From sequence record MZ726796.1: a DNA stretch of 46,233 nt; one strand, given 5' to 3'. How positions within the stretch are numbered: position 1 is the first letter of the stretch; each line of letters begins with the position of its first letter. The notes beneath the pieces were generated by a model. That model was not told the origin of the DNA and ran no database searches. It worked only from the letters and a program-made list of their open reading frames with translations. Positions 2,478 to 43,460 of the stretch are shown piece after piece. Position numbers and translations under genes: made by a program. Source of the DNA: Escherichia phage vB_EcoS_ASO78B.

Positions 2478-2553
2478 ATCTGCACAACCGCACTTGACCA
2501 ATCTACACCGGGCGCATAGTATAATCTACATCAGGTTTATCGGAGATATCACT

Positions 2554-2967: not shown

Positions 2968-3156
2968 ATGATTATTAATGAAACGAAAAATTGCTATGAA
3001 CTGCAAGTTAGTCATAGTTTTGGTGATTACCCTATCATTATGCTTACTTCATTCCGTGAAGGTGATGATGTTAATTCTATCGGCATTGATAAACACCAAG
3101 CCACGCAACTAATCGAAGTTCTGCAGCGCTGGGTTAATGGCGAGGAGATTGAGTGA
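2968..3156 (+). CDS. hypothetical protein
   Basis: 62 aa from ATG 2968 after GAGGTG RBS. Confidence 0.4.
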   Translation: MIINETKNCYELQVSHSFGDYPIIMLTSFREGDDVNSIGIDKHQATQLIEVLQRWVNGEEIE

Positions 3157-7779: not shown

Positions 7780-7811
7780 CTTCATCACCTCATTCGTCAC
7801 TTGATGTAGAT

Positions 7812-7840
7812 ACTATGCACCACCACTCAATCTACGTCAA
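7812..7840 (-). promoter_or_regulatory. sigma70-like promoter for accessory island 1
   Basis: minus strand reads TTGACG, 17-nt spacer, CATAGT; overlaps copies of the AATCTACRYCA motif. Confidence 0.4.
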
Positions 7841-10691: not shown

Positions 10692-10794
10692 ATTTACTAC
10701 TCCTTTCGAAATTTATTATTGACTAATCTACATCAAGTAGTCAATACTGTTTCTACACCAACGATTCTATCACAATGAGAGAGGTGATGTGGAA

Positions 10795-16363: not shown

Positions 16364-16390
16364 AAAAGGGGCGAATAGCCCCTTTTAACT
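16364..16390 (+). terminator. rho-independent terminator
   Basis: AAAAGGGGC-GAATA-GCCCCTTTT directly after the capsid stop. Confidence 0.7.
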
Positions 16391-16976: not shown

Positions 16977-17003
16977 AAAACCCGCATAATGCGGGTTTTA
17001 TTG
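16977..17003. terminator. bidirectional terminator
   Basis: AAAACCCGC-ATAAT-GCGGGTTTTA between convergent + and - units. Confidence 0.65.
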
Positions 17004-23591: not shown

Positions 23592-23962
23592 AATCCTTCC
23601 TCATTCATCTTCAGGAAAACAATCATGGCGGCGCGGAGTGCTCCTCGTGATGATATATCTCCAATAGCGCTGCATGAACTAAAGATAAAAAATCCATTTT
23701 TATATTTTTTATCATAAACAAGCGAATCGGCATCCCACTTACAAATCGAATGATGAAGGGATATTTTACTATCAACTATGATAGGCCATGCATCTTCTGG
23801 ATTATTGCATGGGTCAAATTCAATCTCGTTAAAGTCGGCATAAGAACCCGTATCACACTCGACAAATCTAACCGGCTCGCCATCATCATTAAATGACACG
23901 CCAATAATTAGCGCTACCGCCTTATTAATCTCAAAATCACTCATCTCTTCATAATTTTTCAT
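23588..23962 (-). CDS. hypothetical protein (NinX/DUF2591-like?)
   Basis: 124 aa; MSDFEINKAVA...NNPEDAWPII resembles NinX-type proteins; weak. Confidence 0.4.
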   Translation of the reverse strand: MKNYEEMSDFEINKAVALIIGVSFNDDGEPVRFVECDTGSYADFNEIEFDPCNNPEDAWPIIVDSKISLHHSICKWDADSLVYDKKYKNGFFIFSSCSAIGDISSRGALRAAMIVFLKMNEEGL

Positions 23963-24102
23963 ATCACCTTATCCTCATCAAAAATCACGCCAATCACACG
24001 AAGCAGGTCTTTCGCCATGCGCTCTGCTTCTTCGTAGTCATAACCTGCATCGACATACAAATCAGTGTAGAAAGTCAGGTCGGCTTTTGTTTGTTCGTTC
24101 AT
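23959..24102 (-). CDS. small acidic hypothetical protein (47 aa)
   Basis: Hand-translated; ATGA overlaps with both neighbours. Confidence 0.3.
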   Translation of the reverse strand: MNEQTKADLTFYTDLYVDAGYDYEEAERMAKDLLRVIGVIFDEDKVI

Positions 24103-24293
24103 TTCTTGTCGTCGCTCTTAACTAATGCCCAAACCAGTGCGGCGACCCAACCAATAAAACTCCATCCAACGAGAATATTCAGTACGCAGATTGCAGTCCT
24201 GTTTACGTGCTTGCGTTGAAGAGCCACAAAAGATGGCAGAAGGTACACAAATATCACCAAACCAACAAAAAACAACAAAATAACAACATCCAT
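24099..24293 (-). CDS. superinfection-immunity (Imm-family)-like small membrane protein
   Basis: 64 aa, two TMDs; YLLPSFVALQRKH.NR.AI.VLNILVGWSFIGWVAALVWAL matches the Imm-family signature as recalled. Confidence 0.55.
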   Translation of the reverse strand: MDVVILLFFVGLVIFVYLLPSFVALQRKHVNRTAICVLNILVGWSFIGWVAALVWALVKSDDKK

Positions 24294-24328: not shown

Positions 24329-24358
24329 AATCTACATCACCACCTCGCAGGTGTCAAC
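24329..24358 (-). promoter_or_regulatory. sigma70 promoter for the Imm-like operon
   Basis: minus strand TTGACA, 18-nt spacer, TAGATT, about 35 nt upstream of the Imm-like ATG. Confidence 0.5.
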
Positions 24359-24368
24359 ACCACTGAGA

Positions 24369-24377
24369 TGATATAAT
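24369..24377 (+). promoter_or_regulatory. extended -10 promoter (TGaTATAAT) for the tail chaperone/tape measure operon
   Basis: TG-n-TATAAT just upstream of ORF 24398. Confidence 0.45.
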
Positions 24378-24397: not shown

Positions 24398-25114
24398 ATG
24401 CAAAACATGAGCTATCGCACGCCACTAACAGAAATCGGAGAGATGCGCATCTCGCTTTCTGACAGGAGTTTCTTCTTTAAGCCATCATTCCGCGCAATGA
24501 ATGAAATCGGCACACCAAAAGAAATCGTCGAGGTGTACGCAAAACTCAATGGCATTGATTATGTTGCGCCATTGCAGCACGTGGAATACCTGCCATTTGG
24601 CGCGCAGATGCAGGTTATGAAAACCATCAGCAAGCCTGTTTATGGTCGCCATGTGCTGAGTGCGGCCTATATCGTAATGCAGTCATGCTGTGAAGATGAT
24701 ATCTCTGCGCTGATTGGCGGATGGAAGCCAACTCCGCGCGGCGTGCGATACGTGCCGGGCATCATGCCAGTGAACGACATTATTATTATTGCGCGGAACC
24801 TGATGGAGCACGGCATTATTGGCAAGTCACCGCTCAAAGTGCCTGAGCGTCTGGAAGAGCAAGGCAAGAAAACCACAAACGAATTTCATGCGTCGCAATA
24901 CATCATCTCAGCACGCACGCATTTCGACATGACGCGTGATGAGGCCGAAAACCTGTCCATGACAGAGTTTCAGATGATGATTAAGAATAAATATCCAGAG
25001 CCGAAAGGGTTAACGAAAGAAGAGCGCGCGGCAGAGTACGATCAGGCTAAAGCAGACCGTGAGCGCATGAAGGCACTGGCTGAACGCAAAGCGAAAAAAG
25101 CGAGGAATACATAA
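24398..25114 (+). CDS. tail assembly chaperone (putative)
   Basis: 238 aa between major tail and tape measure; basic/acidic C-terminal tail; stop overlaps tape measure ATG. Confidence 0.5.
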   Translation: MQNMSYRTPLTEIGEMRISLSDRSFFFKPSFRAMNEIGTPKEIVEVYAKLNGIDYVAPLQHVEYLPFGAQMQVMKTISKPVYGRHVLSAAYIVMQSCCEDDISALIGGWKPTPRGVRYVPGIMPVNDIIIIARNLMEHGIIGKSPLKVPERLEEQGKKTTNEFHASQYIISARTHFDMTRDEAENLSMTEFQMMIKNKYPEPKGLTKEERAAEYDQAKADRERMKALAERKAKKARNT

Positions 25115-27486
25115 TGGCTGAAGAAGTAGGCGGAATTGTCTATGAAGTCGGGATGGATGTTAAAGGTCTGAAAGCTGGCGCGACAACAGCCAATAAGGCT
25201 TTGGATGACCTTGAATCATCACTGAATAAAACCACTGGTGAGCTTAACAAACTGGACAAAGGCGCACGCAATGCTGGCAGCGGAATGAAGAATGCTGGCG
25301 GTGCAGCTTCAGGGCTTAAAACCAGCATGTCCATGTTGGCTGGTGCAATATCCGTGTCGTTGATTATCGAATGGGGGAAAAGATTCCTTGAGGTTGCTGA
25401 TAACATGACACAGCTTCAGGCAAGAATTGCTCGCCTGTCAACTGATGCAAAAACTGCGAACGAAACATTCAGTTCACTGGCAAATATCGCATCAACCACT
25501 GGCGCAAGCCTCAGTGATACAACGAAGTTATGGGAAACGTTAACATCATCACTGAAAGAGGCTGGCGCGACAAATGCGCAGGTGCTTAACCTTACTGACA
25601 CTCTGCAAAAAATAGGTCGAATCGGCGGCTCTTCAACCGAGGAAATGGCGAACGCCTTACGTCAGTTCGGTCAGTCAATCGCATCTGGCACAATCCGCGC
25701 CGAAGAATTTAACTCCATCCTTGAACAGATGCCTGAACTTGCGCGCCAGATAGCCGCTGGACTTGGCATTTCAATGGGTGAGCTTCACGCCAGAATGCTT
25801 GACGGCAAACTGACGGCAGAAGATGCGCTAAATGCCATTCAGGACAGAACAAGCGTAGTCAATGCTGAGTTCGCAAAACTACCGCGCTCTATATCTCAGG
25901 CTACTGGCAGCCTTGAAACATCCTTTGCAAAAATGATAGCAAGCATAAACGATGCAACCGGAGCCAGTTCCACTTTTGTTTCTGTTATTGATTCCATCAC
26001 TTCAGCAATAAACAGACTTACTGGTCAAACTGTAAGTGCGGCAGAGGTTATTTCTGATTTGACGTCAACTGCCGAAATGTTCAGTCGCAGGGCAAGAACC
26101 TGGTCGTGGGTTGGCATTGACGGGTGGGCAGCACAAAATCAGGCAATAGCGGCGGTAGCAAATCAGGCTGCAACTTTGGTTTCAGACATGGATGCCGTAA
26201 CGAAGTCAACAGGAGAAGCAGCAAAAGCTCAGGCTCATTTGACAGTACCGAAAGCAGCAGAGAAAGACAAAAAGAAAAAAGGCAAGAGCGCCGAAGAACG
26301 ACAAGCTGAGTCAGTCGCTGAAAAGCTGGAGAAATTACGCCAGCAAACCATGCTCAATGCAACATCTACCAGCGAACTATCCCGCGAGCAAGCAATCCTC
26401 AACGCGCAGCAATCACTTGGCAAAGCTGCCACTCAGGAGCAAATAAAACTGGCTGGCGAGTACGCTGCGAAGATTTGGGACCAGAAGAATGCATTGAAGG
26501 AACAGGCTGCTGCGGAGAAGGAAAAGCAGCGCGTAGAACAATCATATCAGGGATTACGTGCCATTGCGTCACCAACGACTGGCATTGACAGTGAATACCA
26601 GCAACGTATGGCTGACCTTGACGCCTACGCCGCAGCATATCCGCAGAAAATCACGGAGATTGAACAGACTAGAGCAGCAATTGAAGCACAATACCGCCAG
26701 CAGCGAATGGATGCGATGTGGGCTGAATGGCAGCAACAAAGCCTCGGTGCGCAACTGTTCGGTACGGCGCTTGATTCGGCAATGAGCACAGCATCAAACA
26801 GCATCACCGGATTACTCACCGGAACAATGAGCGTTCAGGATGCCATGCGCAGCCTCGGCTCTACGGTGCTTAACTCACTGGTAAACAGTTTTGTCGAGAT
26901 GGGCGTGCAGTGGGTGAAATCTGCGGTTATGGGTCAGACAGCTCAGGTAGCAGCAACCGCTACGACAACGGCGGCGCAAACGGCAGGACTGGCAACCACA
27001 ACAGCAGCGTCGACGGCGGCGGCAGCCACCACTACCGCAGCATGGACCCCCGCTGCAATCGTTGCATCAATAGGTTCATTCGGCGGTGCGGCTGCAATTG
27101 GTGTAGGCGCGGTTCTCGGTGCACTAGCGATGGGTATTGCTGGCAAGCGCAAGAATGGCGGCCCTGTTAGCGCCGGAAGCATGTATGAAGTGGGCGAGGG
27201 AAATGCACCAGAAATATTCCAGGCGAGCACAGGCAGGCAATACATGATCCCTGGCAACTCAGGAAAGGTTATCAGCAATAAGGATATTTCCGGTGGAGGG
27301 GGCGGTGTTGTTGTTTATAATAATGTTTACAATAATTCAAGCAACGCCAGCGCAACAAGCAATGCAAGAGATAATGGTGACGGTTCGATAACGATTGAGA
27401 CTTTTATCTCTGACATGGACGAGGGAGGCCCAATGAGCCAGTCAATTTCAAGAAACTTTAACGCCAACAGAAGGGCGACAGAGTAA
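25114..27486 (+). CDS. tail tape measure protein
   Basis: 790 aa, long helical Ala/Gln/Glu-rich regions, Ala/Thr/Gly-rich hydrophobic block. Confidence 0.85.
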   Translation: MAEEVGGIVYEVGMDVKGLKAGATTANKALDDLESSLNKTTGELNKLDKGARNAGSGMKNAGGAASGLKTSMSMLAGAISVSLIIEWGKRFLEVADNMTQLQARIARLSTDAKTANETFSSLANIASTTGASLSDTTKLWETLTSSLKEAGATNAQVLNLTDTLQKIGRIGGSSTEEMANALRQFGQSIASGTIRAEEFNSILEQMPELARQIAAGLGISMGELHARMLDGKLTAEDALNAIQDRTSVVNAEFAKLPRSISQATGSLETSFAKMIASINDATGASSTFVSVIDSITSAINRLTGQTVSAAEVISDLTSTAEMFSRRARTWSWVGIDGWAAQNQAIAAVANQAATLVSDMDAVTKSTGEAAKAQAHLTVPKAAEKDKKKKGKSAEERQAESVAEKLEKLRQQTMLNATSTSELSREQAILNAQQSLGKAATQEQIKLAGEYAAKIWDQKNALKEQAAAEKEKQRVEQSYQGLRAIASPTTGIDSEYQQRMADLDAYAAAYPQKITEIEQTRAAIEAQYRQQRMDAMWAEWQQQSLGAQLFGTALDSAMSTASNSITGLLTGTMSVQDAMRSLGSTVLNSLVNSFVEMGVQWVKSAVMGQTAQVAATATTTAAQTAGLATTTAASTAAAATTTAAWTPAAIVASIGSFGGAAAIGVGAVLGALAMGIAGKRKNGGPVSAGSMYEVGEGNAPEIFQASTGRQYMIPGNSGKVISNKDISGGGGGVVVYNNVYNNSSNASATSNARDNGDGSITIETFISDMDEGGPMSQSISRNFNANRRATE

Positions 27487-27514
27487 AAAAAAGCCCCTCA
27501 CGGGGCTTTTTTTA
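27485..27514. terminator. bidirectional terminator
   Basis: A8-GCCCC-TCAC-GGGGC-T7 between tape measure stop and the convergent KilA-N gene stop. Confidence 0.75.
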
Positions 27515-28162
27515 AATCTTATCAGCGCATTTACGTACTACCCTCGGTATCGTTTCTTTCAGTTCATCCCATGAGTTGACCGCTTCCATATCCAGAAGCG
27601 TGACAAGAGACTTCTGGATGTCACTGCGTAACTGGTTAGTTTTTGCGTCCTGAGAGTCCCATGTGTCAAATCCGGTAACTTCACGGATATCTATCGACTC
27701 CTTTACTGCCTTTGCCACCTGAATGAAATGACCACTATGACCAATCCTGCCCTCTGTGCGTTCAAGCATTCTGCTGACGGCAGCATTAAGTTCCACGAAG
27801 CTTACCGCACCAATATTTCGCAATTCAACCTGCCTCTGCGTAATGAATCTGTCGATGACGAGGAAATGGAAATATGTGCTGTATTGCTCTGCTATATATA
27901 CAGCCAGATGCAAGCAAGCAAAAGTGGAACCATTTCTACCTCGTGTTGATTTTATTGCGCTATCGATACCAAGCTGCTTTTCGCACTCAGCCTTGAAATC
28001 CTTAAACGCATCAGTTGCCATTACCTGTCGTATTTCTCTCGTCCCCATCCCATTATCCAGTCGCCAGCGATTCATCTGGTTAACAAGCTCATTAACGTTA
28101 ATAAAATTTTCACGGTCGAAAGTGATCTCTCCGTACGGGAACTCTAATGTTTGCAGTTTCAT
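27512..28162 (-). CDS. KilA-N domain protein
   Basis: 216 aa; N-terminal region with INVNEL..W and IKSTRGRNGSTFACLHLAVYIAEQYSTYFHFLVIDRF fits the KilA-N pattern (RGG..GTW.HP.LA...A.WLSP.F.V.V). Confidence 0.5.
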   Translation of the reverse strand: MKLQTLEFPYGEITFDRENFINVNELVNQMNRWRLDNGMGTREIRQVMATDAFKDFKAECEKQLGIDSAIKSTRGRNGSTFACLHLAVYIAEQYSTYFHFLVIDRFITQRQVELRNIGAVSFVELNAAVSRMLERTEGRIGHSGHFIQVAKAVKESIDIREVTGFDTWDSQDAKTNQLRSDIQKSLVTLLDMEAVNSWDELKETIPRVVRKCADKI

Positions 28163-28191
28163 GATTATTTCTCCTGTTTAATATAACAATT

Positions 28192-28217
28192 AAATTCTAC
28201 ATTCAAATGTAGAATTT
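28192..28217. promoter_or_regulatory. 26-bp palindromic operator overlapping the KilA-N promoter
   Basis: AAATTCTACATT-CA-AATGTAGAATTT, perfect 12-bp arms; on the minus strand it fills the spacer and -10 of a TTGCAA, 18-nt spacer, TAGAAT promoter. Confidence 0.6.
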
Positions 28218-28336
28218 TTGCAAGCTATTTTAGACAGCAAAACACCACCGAATAGATACATTTTAAACATGCTCAGGCTGGGGTGGCGAAACTTGCTCCG
28301 TGCTAAAATACATCAACAAAGCGAAGAGGATTTCAC

Positions 28337-32135
<3,799 letters not shown>

Positions 32136-36348: not shown

Positions 36349-36385
36349 TGTTAACCTCACTCATCATCACGTAAATGAATCTACA

Positions 36386-36862
36386 TCAATCTACATCGGA
36401 AAGCAAGCCAAAATAGAAAAGCGTGGCTTTTTTTAGTTGCTCAAGACCATAAGCGATAGCGGCGTAGTGACCGAGTCTGCACATCTCAGTTAGCACGGCA
36501 TACTGGTCTTTGCTCACTCTGCTCTTACTTTTGTCACGGCGCTTTGCCTCAATCATTCCACAACTGTGCTTCACTCCAGGCGTCATTATCACGTTGTCGC
36601 CTATTCCAGTCTTAACCCCCATCTTCTGGCGTTTCAGTACGAACTGGATGCGGCTGGACGTGCCTGTTTCATTCGGGACGTGAAACCAGAGCACGTCAGG
36701 GAATTGGCTTTGCATCCATGTGCCGTAACCCATCTGTTCAGTCTCCTCTTTCGGGCATTCCCCACGATAACCGCTATCAAATACCCATATACCGCTATCA
36801 AGCTGCTTCACTTTGTTCTCCTGCAAAATCTTTTCTGTGGATGATGTCGCGACCTTTATCAT
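36386..36862 (-). CDS. VRR-NUC domain nuclease
   Basis: GDNVIMTPG...GMIEAKRRD...SKDQYAVL pattern; start uncertain because the 5' end overlaps the helicase. Confidence 0.6.
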   Translation of the reverse strand: MIKVATSSTEKILQENKVKQLDSGIWVFDSGYRGECPKEETEQMGYGTWMQSQFPDVLWFHVPNETGTSSRIQFVLKRQKMGVKTGIGDNVIMTPGVKHSCGMIEAKRRDKSKSRVSKDQYAVLTEMCRLGHYAAIAYGLEQLKKATLFYFGLLSDVD

Positions 36863-40257: not shown

Positions 40258-40283
40258 AAACCCTCCAATAGGAGGGTTTTTGT
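40258..40283. terminator. bidirectional terminator
   Basis: AAACCCTCC-AATA-GGAGGGTTTTT. Confidence 0.7.
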
Positions 40284-43401: not shown

Positions 43402-43430
43402 ATTGACGTAGAGTCACAACTGATGTAGAT
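43402..43430 (+). promoter_or_regulatory. sigma70 promoter for the right-end + strand genes
   Basis: TTGACG, 17-nt spacer, TAGATT, 30 nt upstream of ATG 43461; both hexamers sit within copies of the recurring motif. Confidence 0.5.
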
Positions 43431-43460
43431 TGAACTCATCGAAACAACGAGGGTGAAGAG

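What the first reader, a model, noticed from the sequence alone, without database searches (positions are those of the whole stretch)
27485..28217. KilA-N gene with a perfect palindromic operator, inserted between tape measure and minor tail genes
A single minus-strand gene sits between convergent and divergent tail genes. It has a strong bidirectional terminator on one side. On the other, a perfect 26-bp palindrome (AAATTCTACATT-CA-AATGTAGAATTT) fills the spacer and -10 of its own promoter (TTGCAA, 18-nt spacer, TAGAAT). The half-site TCTACAT is the core of the genome-wide motif, so this may be the regulator of that regulon, autoregulated at its own operator, or a repressed toxic KilA-type gene.
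Basis: partly seen in the sequence, partly recalled or inferred. Interest (0 to 1): 0.65.

Follow-up and report, generated by a model that had tools for sequence, protein, structure and literature searches.

The report
Self-repressed KilA-N gene cassette in phage
A small, portable phage gene encodes a DNA-binding protein of the KilA-N type that most likely switches off its own promoter through a perfect palindrome, but it does not control the repeated motif found elsewhere in the genome.

Summary
Gene 27512-28162 (minus strand, 216 aa) lies between a bidirectional terminator (27485-27513) and a perfect 12+2+12 palindrome (28192-28217). The palindrome fills the spacer and -10 of TTGCAA-18-TAGAAT. 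The window is a Vi II-E1-like Salmonella siphophage (Macdonaldcampvirus).

Relatives carry different palindromes at the same promoter position. The palindrome type tracks the helix-turn-helix/wing region of the protein, with symmetric changes in both arms. This supports autorepression by a dimer. It is not proof: one allele class has no palindrome, and about 38 phages are hybrids.

The link to the genome-wide motif is refuted. AATCTACATCA follows the genus backbone, not the KilA-N allele.

The terminator, gene and operator form a ~750-bp cassette found at two different sites in two genera. The same slot is empty in IME207 and holds a T5orf172 endonuclease in swi2. What the protein does beyond regulating itself is unknown.

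The parts
27485..27513 (.). Bidirectional intrinsic terminator: A8, stem GCCCC (27493-27497), loop TCAC, stem GGGGC (27502-27506), T7. It lies between the convergent stop codons of the tape-measure gene (27484-27486) and the KilA-N gene (27512-27514).
   Evidence: -18.9 / -21.7 kcal/mol, z -5.5 / -6.1. The hairpin is kept at the 3' end of the gene in all 23 related loci examined, with variable loops.
27512..28162 (-). Gene for a 216-aa protein. Residues ~1-105 form a KilA-N/APSES-type winged helix-turn-helix domain. Residues ~110-216 form an all-helical bundle.
27922..28042 (-). Codons ~41-80: the helix-turn-helix (H44-48, H51-64) and the following strand/loop. This is the allele-defining patch: GTREIRQVMATD in this window, GFKHLRQLMTT, QPRNLAQILKT or GEKNLSQLLST in other alleles.
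   Evidence: Identity falls to 57-70% here between alleles of one genus, while the flanks stay at 87-97%. This stretch aligns with the Mbp1 HTH region.
28170..28175 (-). Shine-Dalgarno sequence AGGAGA, 7 nt upstream of the ATG.
   Evidence: Conserved in relatives.
28192..28217 (.). Operator: perfect dyad AAATTCTACATT-CA-AATGTAGAATTT. The right arm, read on the minus strand, contains the -10 hexamer.
   Evidence: It occurs once per genome.
28194..28223 (-). Sigma-70-type promoter: -35 TTGCAA (28223-28218), 18-nt spacer, -10 TAGAAT (28199-28194). The predicted start is near 28187.
   Evidence: The homologous promoter is annotated in phage Jersey.
27481..28232 (-). Extent of the portable cassette (terminator + gene + promoter/operator). 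Apart from one 33-nt match at 28298-28330, this is the only stretch of the 2-kb query (26900-28900) homologous to Jerseyvirus loci, where it sits between the portal and head-morphogenesis genes.
27487..28336 (.). The whole segment that is extra relative to the empty site in phage IME207, where the tape-measure stop overlaps the next gene's start (TAATG).
28298..28336 (+). Right border: GTGCTAAAATACATCAACAAAGCGAAGAGGATTTCAC. It supplies the ribosome-binding site and probably a restart promoter for the downstream tail genes, and it contains a degenerate copy of the genome motif (AAAATACATCA, 28305-28315). The border is shared with swi2, whose slot holds an endonuclease instead, and partly with Jerseyvirus L011.
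   Evidence: The function is inferred.

Best explanation
The gene encodes a sequence-specific DNA-binding protein. Its N-terminal KilA-N/APSES winged helix-turn-helix domain reads DNA. Its C-terminal helical bundle most likely makes the dimer and carries a conserved, still unknown activity. The dimer binds the 26-bp dyad that runs from just after the -35 through the -10 of its own sigma-70 promoter and blocks RNA polymerase. The gene would then be expressed early from a host-type promoter and hold itself at a low, fixed level (negative autoregulation).

Terminator, gene and promoter/operator form a self-contained ~750-bp antisense cassette that has moved between phage backbones. The terminator stops antisense transcription into the tape-measure gene, and the right border restarts expression of the downstream tail genes.

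Shown: the anatomy, the KilA-N fold, cassette portability, allele-specific operator types, a single site per genome, and strong purifying selection. Inferred: binding, dimerisation, repression, and early timing.
For: 1. The dyad overlaps the spacer and -10 of the gene's own promoter.

2. It is the only copy of that site in the genome, and the same holds for the B-type site in its genomes.

3. The same position in relatives holds different dyads:
- A: AAATTCTACATT-n2-AATGTAGAATTT
- B: AAATGGTATAT-n4-ATATACCATTT
- D: nested GAAkAyT repeats
A and B differ by the same three bases in both arms, so dyad symmetry itself is conserved.

4. Operator type tracks the HTH/wing patch of the protein. By sequence inspection there are 7 A/A, 8 B/B and 4 D/D loci. 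By BLAST, all 21 assessable records with an A-type protein have an A operator. Both alleles occur in both genera.

5. Within one genus, A and B loci differ in two separate patches (operator; codons ~37-77). About 150 bp of 87-97% identity separates them.

6. Four of four hybrid loci inspected have a B-type protein with a proximal A operator, and all four keep a complete B promoter/operator upstream.

8. The half-site cores are about 11 bp apart, roughly one helical turn, which suits a dimer bound on one face of the DNA (read directly from the sequence).
Against: - No binding or expression data exist.
- The operator and the recognition patch are only ~200 bp apart, so part of the association could be simple linkage. 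The number of independent exchange events is small.
- Allele class C has no convincing palindrome at this position. It is probably the commonest class; I did not count alleles across the 341 records.
- About 38 Jerseyvirus records combine a B-type protein with a perfect proximal A operator. Specificity is therefore either not strict, or that operator is a relic.
- The Pfam KilA-N score of this protein alone is below the curated cut-off (21.3 against 23.8 bits).
- Dimerisation was not modelled.
Confidence: 0.68

Rival explanations
1. BstA-like inter-phage weapon with a cognate self-immunity site. The protein inhibits competing phages that lack the matching DNA element, for example at DNA replication. 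The palindrome at its own 5' end neutralises it in cis, as the aba element does for BstA. Diversified protein/site pairs would then stop related phages from exploiting each other. This is compatible with autoregulation.
For: [quoted passage not shown]
- Here there are at least three protein/site allele pairs at the gene's own 5' end.
- Hybrids keep the cognate site.
- The C-terminal domain is nearly invariant, as expected for a fixed effector.
Against: - There is no sequence similarity to BstA beyond chance (hhalign probability 0.16%, BLASTP E 5.6).
- No PADLOC model matched significantly (best PDC-S22, E 0.0016). I assume the library holds a BstA model; I did not check.
- The carrier is a virulent phage, not a prophage.
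- aba has terminal direct repeats rather than a dyad inside a promoter.
- No phenotype data exist.
Confidence: 0.12
2. Nuclease-free remnant or domesticated DNA-binding module of a homing-endonuclease lineage. The cassette would persist and move like a free-standing selfish gene, and the palindrome would be its autoregulatory or former target site.
For: - The same KilA-N + C-terminal module is fused to N-terminal GIY-YIG or T5orf172/MUG113 nuclease domains in several family members.
- The cassette sits antisense between conserved structural genes at two different sites in two genera.
- The same slot holds a T5orf172 endonuclease in swi2, with the same terminator and right border, and is empty in IME207.
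- Precedent: CapR, a DNA-binding domain of T5orf172 homing endonucleases domesticated as a repressor (PMC8096241).
Against: - The protein has no nuclease domain.
- It is under very strong purifying selection and is present in 341 phage records. That argues for a function useful to the phage rather than a decaying selfish gene.
- The empty-site sequence in IME207 shows no resemblance to the dyad.
Confidence: 0.1
3. The palindrome is the site of some other factor (a host protein or another phage regulator), or it acts as a nucleic-acid hairpin. In that case the KilA-N protein has a different target.
For: - There is no direct evidence of binding.
- Allele class C lacks the dyad.
- About 38 hybrids pair a B-type protein with an A operator.
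- The dyad can fold as RNA at -9.9 / -11 kcal/mol.
Against: - Operator type follows the protein's recognition patch, not the phage backbone. Both alleles occur in both genera.
- Most of the dyad lies upstream of the predicted transcription start, so the gene's own mRNA would not contain the hairpin.
- The stem is made entirely of A-T pairs and is weak.
Confidence: 0.07
4. One reading: the protein is the master regulator of the genome-wide TCTACAT(CA) motif regulon.
For: The operator arms and the motif share the 7-mer TCTACAT.
Against: - Counts of ATCTACATCA: Macdonaldcampvirus with allele A, 6 copies; Macdonaldcampvirus SB28 with allele B and a GGTATAT operator, 10 copies at what look like the same sites. 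Jerseyvirus K47 (allele A), Jersey and K29 (allele B), 0 copies each.
- The 12-nt half-site is not enriched elsewhere in the window.
Confidence: 0.02
5. The database label: a cell-wall amidase involved in lysis (PHROG 6095, RefSeq).
For: PHROG 6095 matches at E 1.3e-123 and is named 'amidase'. The same name appears in many records.
Against: - No amidase or other peptidoglycan-hydrolase domain appears in Pfam even at E up to 1.
- The fold is wHTH plus a helical bundle.
- The related phages annotated here have separate endolysin/holin/spanin genes.
- The original 2008 annotation already noted KilA similarity.
Confidence: 0.01

Closest known systems
KilA-N / APSES DNA-binding domain family (Pfam PF04383; yeast Mbp1/Swi4; phage P1 KilA; poxvirus N1R/p28)
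   Different: The C-terminal domain is not the KilA-C/ANT domain of P1 KilA and matches no Pfam family. To my knowledge no phage KilA-N protein has a defined operator; this one has a candidate.
BstA-aba abortive-infection system of Salmonella prophage BTP1 (Owen et al. 2021, PMC8585504)
   Same: [quoted passage not shown] Different homologues carry different, matching elements.
   Different: There is no detectable sequence homology. BstA is 307 aa and prophage-encoded, and its element has terminal direct repeats and acts as self-immunity. Here the carrier is a virulent siphophage, the element is a dyad inside the core promoter, and no defence phenotype is known.
Classical phage autorepressors with a dyad operator over the promoter (for example lambda Cro/CI, P22 Arc/Mnt), and heteroimmune operator/repressor allele pairs of lambdoid phages
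   Same: A dyad operator overlaps the -10 and spacer of the regulator's own promoter. Allelic protein/operator pairs are exchanged among related phages.
   Different: The DNA-binding fold differs (KilA-N, not lambda-type HTH or ribbon-helix-helix). There is one operator per genome, no lysogeny switch, and the gene lies antisense inside the structural-gene operon.
Free-standing homing-endonuclease genes and their domesticated derivatives (I-TevI as autorepressor, from my own knowledge; CapR of PLE, PMC8096241)
   Same: A stand-alone antisense gene between conserved essential genes, found at different sites in related phages. Relatives fuse the same module to GIY-YIG/T5orf172 nuclease domains. 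A T5orf172 endonuclease occupies the same slot in swi2.
   Different: This protein has no nuclease domain, and no target-site resemblance was found.
DdrC of Deinococcus radiodurans (PDB 7qvb, 7udi)
   Different: Sequence identity is 14% and no homology is detectable by sequence. DdrC binds damaged DNA without a specific operator (my own knowledge).

Membership tests
KilA-N domain (PF04383) | Match to the Pfam profile at or above the gathering score | tested here: inconclusive
   This protein scores 21.3 bits, E 2.4e-4, against a cut-off of 23.8. Forty of 53 full-length relatives hit at E < 0.01, the best at 7.1e-18, and the Vibrio phage homologue scores 32.9 bits.
KilA-N domain (PF04383) | APSES/KilA-N fold (beta-sheet plus helix-turn-helix and wing) | tested here: met
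KilA-N domain (PF04383) | Sequence-specific DNA binding | not testable with these tools
   Only comparative evidence is available: operator type tracks the HTH/wing patch.
P1 KilA / antirepressor (KilA-N + KilA-C/ANT) | C-terminal ANT/KilAC domain (PF03374) | tested here: not met
   No Pfam hit other than KilA-N at E up to 1, apart from two chance-level hits.
BstA abortive-infection family | Homology to BstA over both domains | tested here: not met
   hhalign of family profile A2 against BstA(BTP1) gives probability 0.16%, E 0.37. BLASTP gives E 5.6. No significant PADLOC hit.
BstA abortive-infection family | Cognate DNA element at its own 5' end that suppresses the protein; encoded by a prophage | tested here: inconclusive
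   A cognate-looking dyad exists at the gene's own promoter, but its effect on the protein is untested. The carrier phages are classified in Jerseyvirus and Macdonaldcampvirus; that these are virulent rather than prophages is my own knowledge.
GIY-YIG / T5orf172 homing endonucleases with a KilA-N DNA-binding module | Nuclease domain present | tested here: not met
   No such domain is present in this 216-aa protein. It is present in relatives P0040, P0049, P0072, P0076, P0080, P0082 and P0091.
GIY-YIG / T5orf172 homing endonucleases with a KilA-N DNA-binding module | Free-standing gene between conserved genes, with presence/absence polymorphism | tested here: met
   The site is empty in IME207 and holds an endonuclease in swi2. 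The cassette lies at the portal/head-morphogenesis junction in Jerseyvirus.
N-acetylmuramoyl-L-alanine amidase (the database label) | Amidase_2/3/5 or CHAP catalytic domain | tested here: not met
   None appears in Pfam at E up to 1. The fold is wHTH plus a helical bundle.
Negatively autoregulated repressor (functional class) | Dyad operator overlapping its own core promoter | tested here: met
   Conserved position in alleles A, B and D. Not found in allele C.
Negatively autoregulated repressor (functional class) | Protein represses its own promoter | not testable with these tools
   Needs a reporter fusion, EMSA or footprinting.

The most novel reading that the evidence does not exclude
The cassette is a portable, allele-specific 'protein plus cognate DNA site' system of virulent phages, analogous to BstA-aba. 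The invariant C-terminal domain would attack or exclude co-infecting relatives, or a host function. The KilA-N domain bound to the phage's own dyad would confer self-recognition. The diversification into A/B/C/D pairs and the tandem hybrid promoters would then be the footprint of competition between phages. The same KilA-N + helical module would also be the DNA-recognition unit of a set of GIY-YIG/T5orf172 endonucleases, which would give the first defined target sites for phage KilA-N domains.
Probability: 0.15. Interest if true: 0.75.

Novelty: new variant of a known kind. Interest (0 to 1): 0.45.

Why it matters
KilA-N domains are among the commonest predicted DNA-binding modules of phages and large DNA viruses, and they are the ancestors of the fungal APSES cell-cycle factors. 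To my knowledge no phage KilA-N protein has a defined operator.

This cassette offers natural matched pairs. The proteins differ by about 13 residues and the sites by 3 bases per half-site. That would make the recognition code directly testable by EMSA and by swapping alleles.

The work also corrects the 'amidase' label carried by many of the 341 phage records that hold this gene. These include Salmonella phages that, to my knowledge, are being considered for biocontrol.

Finally, it shows a small antisense gene module that moves between structural operons complete with its own terminator and operator, in a slot that elsewhere holds a homing-type endonuclease.

The practical weight is moderate. 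Autorepression itself is ordinary, and the protein's real task remains unknown.

Tried and rejected
- **Motif regulon.** I tested whether the genome-wide TCTACATCA motif belongs to this protein and rejected it with a genus-by-allele comparison.
- **Amidase label.** Rejected.
- **Host targets.** I scanned 100,044 species-representative genomes for the dyad. There were 30 scattered hits in unrelated taxa, about what I estimate chance would give, and none in Enterobacteriaceae.
- **Metagenome scan.** A conserved C-terminal DNA pattern found only 3 loci, all Jersey-like, so it added no diversity.
- **BstA homology.** No signal by profile or BLASTP.
- **Single-sequence PDB search.** Chance hits only. 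The profile search gave only a weak Mbp1 hit.
- **Foldseek with the first, weaker model.** Only DdrC at E 0.016. The afdb50 library was unavailable.
- **Word-indexed homologue search with the deep alignment.** It returned only close relatives. Cluster look-ups of distant homologues gave no names.
- **Literature.** Searches for Jerseyvirus + KilA and for Jerseyvirinae promoters found nothing relevant. One search was swamped by unrelated 'Kila...' words. The AriS paper concerns KilAC, not KilA-N.
- **Allele C.** I looked for a palindrome and found none convincing.
- **Third divergent patch.** Codons ~187-197 looked allele-linked in two pairs but not in L014/L015, so I dropped it.
- **Distant homologues.** Palindromes upstream of their genes (L042, L040) are suggestive, but they lie in AT-rich DNA and I did not assess them statistically.
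Full report
**What the window is.** The region 27000-28800 is 88-91% identical to Salmonella phages LPSTLL, KFS-SE2, Segz_1 and Vi II-E1. Vi II-E1 is classified in the genus Macdonaldcampvirus. These are siphophages with a Jersey-like tail module.

**Checking the observation.**
- ORF 27512-28162 (minus strand, 216 aa) is the only sizeable minus-strand ORF here that looks like a gene. It lies between the tape-measure gene (25114-27486) and the next tail gene (28337-28807).
- The inverted repeat has arms at 28192-28203 and 28206-28217. It is perfect, 12 + 2 + 12.
- The promoter scan reports TTGCAA (28223-28218), an 18-nt spacer and TAGAAT (28199-28194) on the minus strand. The dyad runs from one base after the -35 through the -10.
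- AGGAGA lies 7 nt before the ATG.
- On the other side, A8-GCCCC-TCAC-GGGGC-T7 (27485-27513) sits between the two convergent stop codons. It folds at -18.9 and -21.7 kcal/mol on the two strands.
- These two are the longest perfect inverted repeats in the whole window. Only 5 of 200 Markov-simulated genomes contained even one of that length.

**What the protein is.**
- Pfam gives KilA-N at E 2.4e-4, 21.3 bits, just under the 23.8-bit cut-off.
- An exhaustive profile search found 139 representative relatives. Most are 200-230 aa and match over the full length. Of 53 aligned members, 40 hit Pfam KilA-N, the best at 7e-18.
- With this alignment AlphaFold2 gave a confident model: pLDDT 91.7, three short strands, a helix-turn-helix, a beta hairpin, and then six helices.
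- The N-terminal ~105 residues are therefore a KilA-N/APSES domain.
- The C-terminal ~110 residues match no Pfam, NCBIfam or PADLOC family.
- PHROG 6095 calls the family 'amidase' and RefSeq copies that name. No hydrolase domain or fold supports it. The 2008 Vi II-E1 record already noted the KilA similarity.

**Selection.** Across the Jersey-like phages the C-terminal half is almost invariant, while residues ~27-85 vary. For the C-terminal 110 codons, dN is 0.03-0.07 and synonymous sites are saturated, so omega is about 0.03 or less. In the N-terminal part, dN reaches 0.4-0.46 between alleles. The gene is present in 341 phage records. It is a working, constrained gene.

**The comparative result.** I collected the promoter region and the start of the gene from 16 IMG/VR loci and 12 GenBank phages. 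The site between the -35 and the mRNA start holds different dyads, and each goes with a different sequence in the HTH/wing patch of the protein.

| Allele | Dyad at the promoter | Protein patch | Loci |
|---|---|---|---|
| A | AAATTCTACATT-n2-AATGTAGAATTT | GTRE(I/L)RQVMATD | window, L002-L005, K47, EcoPhCCP1 |
| B | AAATGGTATAT-n4-ATATACCATTT | GFKHLRQLMTT | SB28, Jersey, SETP7-like and others |
| D | nested GAAkAyT inverted repeats spanning -35 to beyond -10 | GEKNLSQLLST | SS3e, S55, CTH7, BPS11T2 |
| C | none convincing (TTGCAT-18-TATAAT only) | QPRNLAQILKT | L007-L011 |

- A and B half-sites differ at three positions (TCTAC against GGTAT). The change is mirrored in both arms, so the symmetry itself has been kept.
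- A and B proteins differ at about 13 residues. These cluster at 41-52 and 67-72, the stretch that aligns with the helix-turn-helix of Mbp1.
- Both alleles occur in both genera.
- Within one genus, A and B loci are 87-97% identical from the 5' UTR to codon ~37. Identity drops to 53-57% over the operator and to 57-70% over codons ~37-77.
- By BLAST, all 21 assessable records with an A-type patch carry the A dyad.
- Each dyad is unique in its genome.

This is the pattern expected if the KilA-N domain of a dimer reads the dyad and represses its own promoter.

**Limits of that inference.**
- The two patches are only ~200 bp apart, so linkage contributes to the association, and independent events are few.
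- Allele C has no dyad.
- About 38 Jerseyvirus records (AG11, SE479, the ER and RA series) have a B-type protein with a perfect A dyad at the proximal promoter.
- In all four hybrids that I read, a 29-nt repeat marks a tandem duplication. A complete B module (TTGACA + B dyad) lies upstream of an A module whose -35 is weakened to TTGGTT or TCGGTT. The cognate site is kept, which fits the model. It also shows that a non-cognate dyad can be tolerated, or that B protein binds both.

**The regulon idea is refuted.** The window has 9 copies of TCTACATC against ~1.6 expected, and 6 copies of ATCTACATCA.

| Phage | Genus | KilA-N allele | Copies of ATCTACATCA |
|---|---|---|---|
| window | Macdonaldcampvirus | A | 6 |
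| SB28 | Macdonaldcampvirus | B | 10 |
| K47 | Jerseyvirus | A | 0 |
| Jersey | Jerseyvirus | B | 0 |
| K29 | Jerseyvirus | B | 0 |

SB28 has 12 copies of TCTACATC at what look like the same sites as in the window. The motif belongs to the Macdonaldcampvirus backbone, and the shared 7-mer is a coincidence of two AT-rich promoter-embedded sites. The motif sits in promoter regions, often in pairs, directly after -35-like or -10-like hexamers and about 20 nt before start codons. Its factor is unknown.

**The cassette is portable.**
- Apart from one 33-nt match at 28298-28330, the only homology between the 2-kb query (window 26900-28900) and Jerseyvirus loci is 27481-28232: terminator, gene and promoter/operator.
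- In Jerseyvirus the same cassette lies antisense between the portal and head-morphogenesis genes. Here it lies between the tape-measure and distal tail genes.
- The terminator hairpin travels with it.
- In IME207 the tape-measure stop overlaps the next gene's start (TAATG). That is the empty site.
- In swi2 the same slot has the same terminator and the same right border (GTGCTAAAATACAnCAACA). It holds a 292-aa protein with a zinc finger, a CapR-like domain and a T5orf172/MUG113 domain, a homing-endonuclease type.
- Several distant members of the KilA-N family carry N-terminal GIY-YIG or T5orf172 nuclease domains. Others are solitary genes in bacterial contigs, one beside an HNH gene and one beside a transposase gene.
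- The module therefore belongs to the world of mobile, DNA-site-specific phage genes. A published precedent for a nuclease-family DNA-binding module turned repressor is CapR (PMC8096241).

[quoted passage not shown] Its activity is cancelled by a cognate DNA element that spans the start of its own gene, and each homologue has its own element (PMC8585504). The parallel with allele-specific dyads at the gene's own 5' end is striking. However, there is no sequence homology and no defence-library hit. The element here is a promoter dyad, and the carrier is a virulent phage. I keep this as the most novel reading that the evidence does not exclude.

**Host targets.** The full A dyad is absent from Enterobacteriaceae among 100,044 species-representative genomes. 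The 30 hits are scattered in unrelated taxa, about what I estimate chance would give.

**Verdict.** The finding is real, and its core interpretation is supported by comparative evidence though untested by experiment: a KilA-N gene with its own dyad operator, autoregulated, inserted among tail genes. The attractive extension, a regulator of the genome-wide motif, is wrong. The KilA-N similarity itself was already annotated. What appears new is the set of operator/recognition-patch allele pairs, the hybrid tandem promoters, and the portability of the cassette. Interest is moderate.

Noticed in passing
window 2523-2533, 7802-7812(-), 10725-10735, 24329-24339, 36378-36398, 43421-43431(-); weaker copies at 7829, 19164, 22568, 24375, 28305, 32139: The genome-wide motif AATCTACATCA lies in promoter regions. 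It often comes in pairs, directly after -35-like or -10-like hexamers and about 20 nt before start codons. It is present in Macdonaldcampvirus genomes whatever the KilA-N allele and absent from Jerseyvirus. It is probably the site of an unidentified backbone-encoded regulator or part of a phage-specific promoter.
   Followed up: partly
L038 (Escherichia phage swi2) 740-1860; L039 (IME207) 1930-2050: The junction between the tape-measure and distal tail genes is a variable slot. It is empty in IME207 (TAATG overlap). In swi2 it holds an antisense T5orf172/MUG113 + zinc-finger + CapR-like endonuclease, with the same terminator hairpin and the same right border (GTGCTAAAATACAnCAACA) as the KilA-N cassette.
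   Followed up: partly
L006, L031, L077, L078 (phages AG11, SE479, ER13, RA112), ~110 nt upstream of the gene: Tandem promoter modules, each preceded by a 29-nt direct repeat (AATCATrCrCATTTAAGGTTAAAAAGAGC). The first is TTGACA + B dyad and the second is TTGGTT/TCGGTT + A dyad, with a B-type protein. About 38 GenBank records share the A-dyad/B-protein combination.
   Followed up: partly
proteins P0040, P0049, P0072, P0076, P0080, P0082, P0091; L043 2501-3415: Members of the same KilA-N + C-terminal family carry an extra N-terminal GIY-YIG or T5orf172/MUG113 nuclease domain. In those proteins the module serves as the DNA-binding part of homing-type endonucleases.
   Followed up: partly
L042 2443-2470 and 4091-4136: A metagenomic bacterial contig carries two paralogues of the family about 1.7 kb apart, next to an HNH gene. 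Each is preceded by a long near-perfect palindrome (14+14 at 93%; 21+21 at 86%) shortly upstream of its start codon. This hints that self-operators are general in the family.
   Followed up: no
L012 (Salmonella phage SS3e) ~2979-3040: The SS3e copy of the gene is frameshifted after about codon 17 (MKSQTLEFPYGDITFTPRR*). This is either a sequencing error in an old record or a pseudogene.
   Followed up: no
window 27512-28162 and many GenBank/RefSeq records: The product name 'amidase' (PHROG 6095, category lysis; 'endolysin' in ZCSE9) has been propagated through many of the 341 records without any supporting domain or fold. It should read KilA-N domain DNA-binding protein.
   Followed up: yes
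window 24329-24357 (-): A good leftward sigma-70-like promoter (TTGACA-17-TAGATT) has a -10 that is formed by the reverse complement of a genome-motif copy. It faces the small membrane-protein ORFs at 24099-24293 and 23959-24102. A second motif copy follows a TATAAT at 24375 on the + strand, before gene 24398.
   Followed up: no
window 16977-16999, 16364-16386, 40258-40279: Other perfect GC-cored inverted repeats flanked by A and T runs (AAAACCCGCATAATGCGGGTTTT and others). They look like further bidirectional terminators between gene blocks.
   Followed up: no
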